From assembly GCA_964016885.1 (NCBI GenBank), contig OZ024763.1, forward strand, positions 16,058,001 to 16,122,000: 64,000 nucleotides of DNA, given 5' to 3'. Shown here piece after piece: positions 45,913 through 45,994 of the stretch. Both the position numbers and the translations under genes were made by a program. Below the pieces are notes generated by a model, which was given only the letters and a program-made list of their open reading frames with translations, was not told where the DNA came from and ran no database searches. Numbering within the stretch: position 1 is the first letter of the stretch; the number at the start of each line of letters is the position of its first letter. Source of the stretch: Eledone cirrhosa. Its lineage: Eukaryota.

Positions 45913-45994
45913 ACACCCAGACAGCTTTTGGTAGGCTGTTTCGCAATTTAATTGTGAAGAGAATTACCAATTCTTATTGCTCATCAGTGGGTGT
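45913..45994 (-). ncRNA. Canonical type I hammerhead ribozyme with stable stems and a GUC site
   Basis: Minus strand ACACCCA-CTGATGA-GCAAT...ATTGC-GAAA-CAGC/ctaccaaaa/GCTG-TC-TGGGTGT. Confidence 0.88.

What the first reader, a model, noticed from the sequence alone, without database searches (positions are those of the whole stretch)
45913..45994. One fully canonical hammerhead with stable stems
Seen on the minus strand: 7-bp stem I (ACACCCA/TGGGTGT), intact CUGAUGA and GAAA, stem II closed by G-C (GCAAT/ATTGC) with an inner hairpin, 4-bp stem III (CAGC/GCTG) and a GUC site. Its stem III is not palindromic and it is not in a foldback. It is the best candidate for an active monomer. It may belong to another element class such as a retrozyme-like RNA (inference). 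It lies about 7 kb upstream of, and on the same strand as, the 8-exon gene.
Basis: partly seen in the sequence, partly recalled or inferred. Interest (0 to 1): 0.75.

Follow-up and report, generated by a model that had tools for sequence, protein, structure and literature searches.

The report
Hammerhead in truncated octopod retrozyme copy
This is a complete, textbook-shaped hammerhead motif, predicted to be a self-cutting RNA, inside a broken copy of a protein-free repeat found at hundreds of places in an octopus-like genome and likely spread by Penelope-type jumping genes; it is a new family of a known kind, and the sequence just upstream is predicted to fold the motif shut.

Summary
The type I hammerhead at 45994-45913 (minus strand) is real and canonical; the predicted cut lies between 45920 and 45919. 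It is not a lone motif. It sits in a fragment (46066-45716) of a ~519-bp non-coding repeat unit: 403 exact copies of a 17-base anchor in the genome against 0 for the control. Copies run head-to-tail past one unit, end at two fixed points often beside (TA)n, and 52 of 88 loci have an inverted arm, as Penelope-like elements do. This fits an animal non-LTR retrozyme mobilised by Penelope-like enzymes (mobilisation inferred). The window copy holds one ribozyme, so it could not release a unit-length circle. That construct risks a false negative. Cleavage and expression were not tested. The scan has reported this kind of element repeatedly on other octopus DNA; a look-up by sequence found nothing for this family. 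New member of a known kind; modest interest.

The parts
45913..45994 (-). Type I hammerhead motif (stem I 7 bp, stem II 5 bp with 28-nt loop, stem III 4 bp plus A15.1-U16.1, GUC site)
   Evidence: sequence; descriptor scan; 0 hits in 30 shuffled windows
45919..45920 (-). Predicted cleavage site, 3' of C17 (45920)
   Evidence: position in the canonical core; cleavage not tested
45716..46066 (-). Fragment of the ~519-bp retrozyme unit (unit positions 99-473, with a 26-nt internal deletion), truncated at both ends, one hammerhead
45995..46014 (-). 5' flank strand predicted to pair with loop II (45974-45954; duplex -21.5 kcal/mol) and block the ribozyme; part of it (46003-46000) can instead extend stem I
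   Evidence: prediction only
46017..46026 (-). Second upstream strand predicted to pair with 45920-45911 (cleavage site and 3' strand of stem I) in the blocked fold
   Evidence: 7 of its 10 pairs hold across the family, 2 mostly do not
45948..45975 (-). Loop II, variable between subfamilies; holds the target of the flank strand
45716..45722 (.). Junction with a younger foldback repeat through a ~7-nt microhomology; about 45 nt of the unit's 3' end, the TA tract and about 20 nt of the neighbour's end are missing
   Evidence: deletion is inferred

Best explanation
The motif is a canonical type I hammerhead inside a truncated, likely dead copy of a ~519-bp protein-free repeat family (an animal non-LTR retrozyme) that is likely copied into TA repeats by Penelope-like reverse transcriptase and endonuclease. 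Shown: motif, family, unit length, absence of a long ORF, head-to-tail continuation past one unit, two fixed 3' ends, inverted arms. Inferred: multi-unit source copies are transcribed; successive hammerheads cut out a 519-nt monomer that is ligated to a circle; a Penelope-type endonuclease opens (TA)n; both target ends prime reverse transcription, one near unit position ~516-519 and one near ~430; synthesis runs round the template, giving arms longer than one unit joined back to back. This copy has one ribozyme and lost both ends, so at most it would cut a read-through transcript, and its own 5' flank is predicted to lower that.
For: Family: 40 of 40 scored candidates match, 4551 first-look candidates; 403 exact 17-mers, control 0; 699 exact 3'-region 15-mers, control 13. 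Unit: 33 complete units, 491-532 nt, longest ATG ORF median 44, maximum 85 aa. Of 63 loci reaching the unit start, 56 are preceded by the unit's own end (13 of 17 among loci taken in genome order); none shows a shared unique upstream sequence. 3 of 88 loci carry two or more hammerheads in tandem, one of them three (L068). 3' ends: 45 of 88 at unit 513-524, 23 at 425-436; 52 of 88 have an inverted arm. Where both arms end at a fixed point, 28 of 32 use different points (Fisher p 1.6e-4). Craig et al. (PMC8557442, passages) give partial tandems, an inverted 5'-truncated copy and microsatellite bias as Penelope-like hallmarks. The genome holds many GIY-YIG elements (150 of 150 scored over cut-off; one ORF with RVT_1 and GIY-YIG). 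At L040 the unit's end is fused in frame to a 5'-truncated Penelope-like ORF. Ribozyme kept across subfamilies: 0 of 13 core columns and 2 of 26 stem columns carry shared variants against 17 of 38 loop columns (p 5e-5); the outer stem I pair is U-A in 36 and A-U in 19 of 60.
Against: No cleavage, transcript or circle was shown. Tandems with two intact-length ribozyme units are rare: 3 of 88 loci, 0 of 26 loci taken in genome order, and loci L032-L060 were picked with a junction query, which inflates the junction count. Core plus stems are not significantly more conserved than the rest of the unit (p 0.2). The compensatory stem I pair looks like a single event on the tree (read by eye). Only 39 of 88 main ends and 18 of 52 inverted ends passed the strict TA test. 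No autonomous element sharing the unit's sequence or ribozyme was found in 30 GIY-YIG loci; 3 held family fragments beside TA tracts only. The L040 chimera is one case and could be a later insertion or deletion. The unit (519 nt) is longer than the 170-400 nt of Cervera and de la Pena, though within the 51-972 bp of Li et al..
Confidence: 0.82

Rival explanations
1. The sequence is the pseudo-LTR or 3' end of an autonomous Penelope-like element, and the copies are its 5'-truncated insertions.
For: Same insertion anatomy; Penelope-like elements carry type I hammerheads in their pseudo-LTRs (PMC8557442); Li et al. derive retrozymes from pseudo-LTRs.
Against: Upstream of the unit start lies the unit's own end in 56 of 63 loci, not an ORF; no ORF over 85 aa in 33 units; none of 30 GIY-YIG loci has the unit as its 3' end; hammerheads of Penelope-like elements are described as minimal (PMC7761336), this one is full. 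Only 88 loci and 30 of more than 10,000 GIY-YIG candidates were seen.
Confidence: 0.08
2. The template is a linear multi-unit transcript rather than a circle; the hammerhead only trims it, and arms longer than one unit come from tandem source loci.
For: Tandem loci exist (L068, L057, L051) and give the same head-to-tail junction; no circle was observed.
Against: Tandem loci are rare (3 of 88) while 10 of 26 genome-order loci exceed one unit; the junction is seamless and the ribozyme cut site is intact inside copies; circular folds of 7 of 7 units tested beat shuffles (z -2.4 to -6.3), which does not separate circle from linear; circles are shown for coral, mussel and axolotl retrozymes (PMC7229834).
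Confidence: 0.25
3. This copy was co-opted to cut upstream or 5'-UTR transcripts of the neighbouring gene.
For: Same strand, about 7.2 kb upstream of the first coding exon; core intact, 96.9% like its subfamily majority.
Against: 38 of 60 copies keep an intact core, so intactness is no sign of selection; the copy is truncated and fused to a younger repeat; the flank is predicted to block it; no transcript evidence.
Confidence: 0.03

Closest known systems
Metazoan non-LTR retrozymes (Cervera and de la Pena 2020, PMC7229834: passages, section 14 and Discussion read; review PMC7761336: passages)
   Same: Canonical type I hammerhead in every unit of a non-coding, AT-rich (33-34% GC), head-to-tail repeat; hundreds of copies; coexists with Penelope-like elements; self-paired predicted circle (59-65% paired).
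   Different: Unit ~519 nt against 170-400 nt; mostly 1-1.4-unit dispersed insertions with inverted arms and two fixed ends (the words 'inverted', 'microsatellite', 'target site' do not occur in that paper's main text); stable stem III; in subfamily A a predicted self-blocking flank, whereas that paper predicts a free ribozyme in most animal circles except some mussel ones. Expression and cleavage untested here.
Vertebrate non-LTR retrozymes as Penelope derivatives (Li, Clavereau, Pollet, bioRxiv 10.64898/2026.07.22.740005; parts 1-3 of 5 read, supplements closed)
   Same: Tandem units with a type I hammerhead, many solo monomers, proposed dependence on Penelope-like elements; unit length in their range.
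   Different: No mollusc among the taxa they list; their evidence is co-occurrence and pseudo-LTR phylogeny, not insertion anatomy; here no matching pseudo-LTR was found. They saw cleavage in 1 of 9 elements tested, a caution for any prediction.
Penelope-like elements, EN+ clades (Craig et al. 2021, PMC8557442; passages)
   Same: 5' truncation, partial tandems, adjacent inverted copy, microsatellite targets, hammerhead.
   Different: No ORF; full rather than minimal hammerhead.
Plant LTR retrozymes (Cervera et al. 2016, PMC4918200; passages)
   Same: Ribozyme predicted to be blocked by a complementary strand.
   Different: Type III ribozyme, LTRs, PBS and PPT, Gypsy machinery; here the block is partial and strong in one subfamily only.

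Membership tests
Hammerhead ribozyme, type I | Conserved core CUGANGA, GAAA, UH with G10.1-C11.1 | tested here: met
Hammerhead ribozyme, type I | Three helices with helix I open | tested here: met
   95.8% of cells paired in 60 copies
Hammerhead ribozyme, type I | Loop 1-loop 2 tertiary contact | tested here: inconclusive
   Stem I extends past a bulge or internal loop in the family consensus fold and loop II ends in A; the contact itself was not modelled
Hammerhead ribozyme, type I | Site-specific self-cleavage | not testable with these tools
   needs in vitro assay
Rfam hammerhead families | Score above gathering threshold | tested here: not met
   0 hits; best 17.1 bits against 56.3; the long loop II is the likely reason (inference)
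Metazoan non-LTR retrozyme | Type I hammerhead in each unit of a head-to-tail repeat | tested here: met
   Met by the family (L068 three, L057 and L051 two); the window copy itself has one
Metazoan non-LTR retrozyme | No protein coding | tested here: met
   longest ATG ORF 85 aa in 33 units
Metazoan non-LTR retrozyme | Dispersed high copy number | tested here: met
   403 exact anchors, control 0
Metazoan non-LTR retrozyme | Self-paired monomer fold | tested here: met
   7 of 7 units, z -2.4 to -6.3 against 20 shuffles each; prediction
Metazoan non-LTR retrozyme | Expressed as circular RNA | not testable with these tools
   needs RNase R RNA-seq or northern blot
Autonomous Penelope-like element | RT plus GIY-YIG ORF upstream of the terminal repeat | tested here: not met
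Penelope-mobilised element | Partial tandem, inverted 5' arm, microsatellite target | tested here: met
   (family); the window copy has lost these ends

The most novel reading that the evidence does not exclude
This animal retrozyme carries a built-in switch like plant retrozymes and viroids: one 20-nt strand upstream of the ribozyme either pairs with loop II (off) or extends stem I or pairs with a site about 90 nt past the cut (on-compatible), so the RNA times its own cutting and shields the circle; and its two-armed insertions, with one arm primed at each of two fixed sites plus one chimera with a Penelope-like ORF, record Penelope enzymes copying an RNA circle from both ends of a cut TA repeat.
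Probability: 0.3. Interest if true: 0.55.

Novelty: new member of a known kind. Interest (0 to 1): 0.3.

Why it matters
The class is known and the scan has met it many times in octopus genomes, so the locus itself is ordinary. Two things have some value. The family's insertion ends give sequence-level support for Penelope mobilisation of animal retrozymes, which the papers read propose from co-occurrence and phylogeny. And the predicted blocking flank speaks to an open point raised in PMC7229834 (how animal retrozyme circles avoid cutting themselves) and changes how the cleavage assay must be designed. Three searches listed no paper on cephalopod retrozymes; a squid genome paper counts 235 Rfam hammerhead-1 hits without analysis (PMC6962438, passage). 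The library lacks most subscription journals.

Tried and rejected
Rfam: no hit at gathering score, a weak RAGATH-1 hit only. Expression: no RNA holder listed; the three contig runs of unknown kind, one sample, only showed family pieces and the high depth of the neighbouring repeats. A 24-base anchor had no match in viral or metagenome contigs. Autonomous partner: none in 30 GIY-YIG loci. Pseudoknot reading of the flank-loop II pairing: rejected as the main reading because about 19 pairs inside a closed 28-nt loop look sterically implausible (judgement, not computed) and the same strand is needed for outer stem I; a short pseudoknot is not excluded. Family-wide conserved block: only partly supported. 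The flank-loop II duplex beats shuffled flanks in 32 of 33, 11 of 19 and 8 of 8 copies of groups A, B, C, but part of this follows from loop II repeating the 3' strand of outer stem I; the number of pairs with double changes does not exceed shuffles (239 of 500); B flanks fit C loops as well as their own; the folding penalty from the flank is 5-6 kcal/mol in group A linear pieces (7 units), near zero in B and C, and about 2 in A circles, with only 2-4 control shuffles per unit and one unit (L002) mis-grouped. Promoter motifs (octamer, box A, box B; recalled consensus) were absent from 33 of 33 units, so the snRNA-type promoter noted for other families was not seen. A gapped pattern search for dimers was not possible, so the genome-wide number of dimers is open. 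Ten truncated or foldback-duplicate rows of 70 were dropped before the pair counts; 11 duplicate loci of 99 were dropped before the insertion counts.

Full report
Observation. A relaxed scan printed 10 hammerhead-like rows in the window; the other 9 have short or palindromic stem III. A strict descriptor finds this one only, and none in 30 block-shuffled windows. Rfam does not call it. The bare 82-nt motif folds at z -2.39, with stem I but not the full junction in the minimum-energy structure; the computed penalty for the ribozyme fold is 2.4 kcal/mol, and the folding model ignores Mg2+ and tertiary contacts.

The element. The window lies in a 3.0-Gb genome. The neighbouring gene's best homologues are uncharacterised proteins of Octopus and Argonauta at 59-60% identity, so the host is likely an octopod. 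A search with 45640-46130 matched 40 of 40 scored candidates out of 4551, over 46066-45716 or part of it. A 17-base ribozyme anchor occurs 403 times (control 0). Half of 60 aligned copies keep that anchor, so about 800 or more ribozyme-bearing copies is a rough inference. Other copies extend further and repeat with a period of about 520. Thirty-three complete units measure 491-532 nt, are 77-96% alike (median 88%), form a ladder of subfamilies with end branches near 3.6%, and have no ATG ORF over 85 aa. No two sampled units are near-identical, so no very recent burst was seen in this sample. The window copy covers unit positions 99-473. Its 3' end is fused through a short microhomology to a much younger foldback repeat, 18 copies of which match a 139-base piece perfectly.

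Insertion anatomy, 88 distinct loci of 99 fetched. Of 63 loci reaching the unit start, 56 are preceded by the unit's own end (13 of 17 among loci taken in genome order). Three loci have two or more ribozymes in tandem; none of the 26 genome-order loci does. Main 3' ends fall at unit 513-524 (45), 425-436 (23), 380-401 (7) or elsewhere (13); 39 pass a strict TA test. An inverted arm adjoins the 5' end in 52 (11 of 26 in genome order). Where both arms end at a fixed point, 28 of 32 use different points (p 1.6e-4), and 39 of 52 have a TA-like flank on at least one side. I saw the two end positions; the wording 'two fixed start points' and the idea of testing arm against arm came from earlier scan notes and were then tested here. 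Partial tandems, an adjacent inverted copy and microsatellite bias are listed as Penelope-like hallmarks in PMC8557442 (passages). GIY-YIG elements are abundant in the genome, and one such ORF also matches RVT_1 weakly. At L040 the unit end runs without a TA tract into a 5'-truncated ORF with YRDD and GIY-YIG-like motifs (motifs recognised from memory; Pfam gave no hit; 699 homologues, none named Penelope among the 120 listed), which would fit a template switch but is one case. No autonomous element with this unit as its end was found in 30 GIY-YIG loci.

Is the ribozyme under selection? Over 60 copies the ribozyme helices pair in 95.8% of cells, above all 500 shuffles and far above slid controls; the outer stem I pair is U-A in 36 and A-U in 19, by eye one event on the tree. 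Shared subfamily variants hit 0 of 13 core, 2 of 26 stem (both gap columns of stem II; the outer stem I pair was left out of this set), 17 of 38 loop and 57 of 434 other columns: significant against loops, not against the rest of the unit. This is consistent with, but not proof of, a need for the ribozyme during amplification. Thirty-eight of 60 copies keep an intact core, so the intactness of this copy is unremarkable.

The blocking flank. Adding upstream sequence switches the predicted fold: the probability of the stem II closing pair is 0.3-0.4 for starts up to 46010 and 0.0 from 46016 on. Strand 46014-45995 pairs with loop II (-21.5 kcal/mol against about -6 for shuffled flanks) and 46026-46017 pairs across the cut site. 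The penalty for the ribozyme fold is 2.4 kcal/mol for 46005-45900, 10.0 for 46030-45881 and 4.4 for the whole copy; the drop is likely because the strand has a third partner near unit 333-344. The effect is clear in subfamily A linear pieces, small in B and C and in circles, and covariation for the blocked fold is weak. PMC7229834 (Discussion) says most animal retrozyme circles are predicted to leave the ribozyme free, some mussel ones excepted, while plant retrozymes and viroids block it (also PMC4918200, passages). A search for such a block in retrotransposon hammerheads with five terms found no paper, a narrow search. So the block is a testable prediction and a warning for assay design, not an established feature.

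Mechanism. Shown: motif, family, unit, tandem continuation, fixed ends, inverted arms. Inferred from PMC7229834, PMC7761336 and the 2026 preprint: transcription of multi-unit copies, excision and circularisation of a monomer, reverse transcription by Penelope-like enzymes primed in (TA)n. A linear multi-unit template is the main rival on the template's form; an undiscovered autonomous parent and co-option by the neighbouring gene are less likely. This copy has one ribozyme and neither end, so it is likely inert as a mobile element.

Novelty. The class is published, the link to Penelope-like elements is proposed in print, and the scan already holds at least 24 findings with these words in at least 3 genomes; none matched this family by sequence. 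Searches for cephalopod retrozymes listed no dedicated paper. Supplements of the papers were not read (those of the preprint are closed) and may list mollusc families. Verdict: new member of a known kind, interest 0.3.

Noticed in passing
window 44807-45720: Young foldback repeat (inverted arms 44807-45093 and 45294-45580, 97%); a 139-base piece has 18 perfect copies among 40 scored; normally starts at (TA)n; no complete hammerhead seen in 19 fetched copies by a CUGANGA look; may be another non-autonomous Penelope-type family.
   Followed up: partly
window 7160-7327, 7848-7918, 13479-13544, 34635-34699, 44355-44417, 50162-50226, 53966-54185: Nine further hammerhead-like motifs with short or palindromic stem III in at least three families, two as foldback pairs.
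   Followed up: no
L150:1885-4316 (G000:C3, same site as L040): Two-armed retrozyme insertion whose one arm runs in frame, without a TA tract, into a 5'-truncated Penelope-like ORF; possible template-switch chimera.
   Followed up: partly
window 24133-25518 (+) and 14765-15708 (-): Truncated Penelope-like ORF fragments related to the L040 ORF family (tblastn E 6e-39 and 6e-9); an incomplete hammerhead core follows the first at about 25644.
   Followed up: partly
window 38122-38784 (-) and downstream exons: Gene for an uncharacterised mollusc protein, about 60% identical to Octopus and Argonauta proteins and 40% to Mytilus; no Pfam hit for this exon.
   Followed up: partly
window 11740-13009 (+) and 35084-35521 (+): LINE-type reverse transcriptase fragments (RVT_1 E 1.7e-31 for 11740-12528).
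   Followed up: no
window 46134-46430: Two copies of a very high-copy SINE-like repeat directly upstream of the retrozyme fragment.
   Followed up: no
L068:3647-5036 (G000:C2): Tandem of about 2.4 units with three hammerhead positions plus an inverted arm; two of the three have a G12 change that would likely inactivate them.
   Followed up: partly
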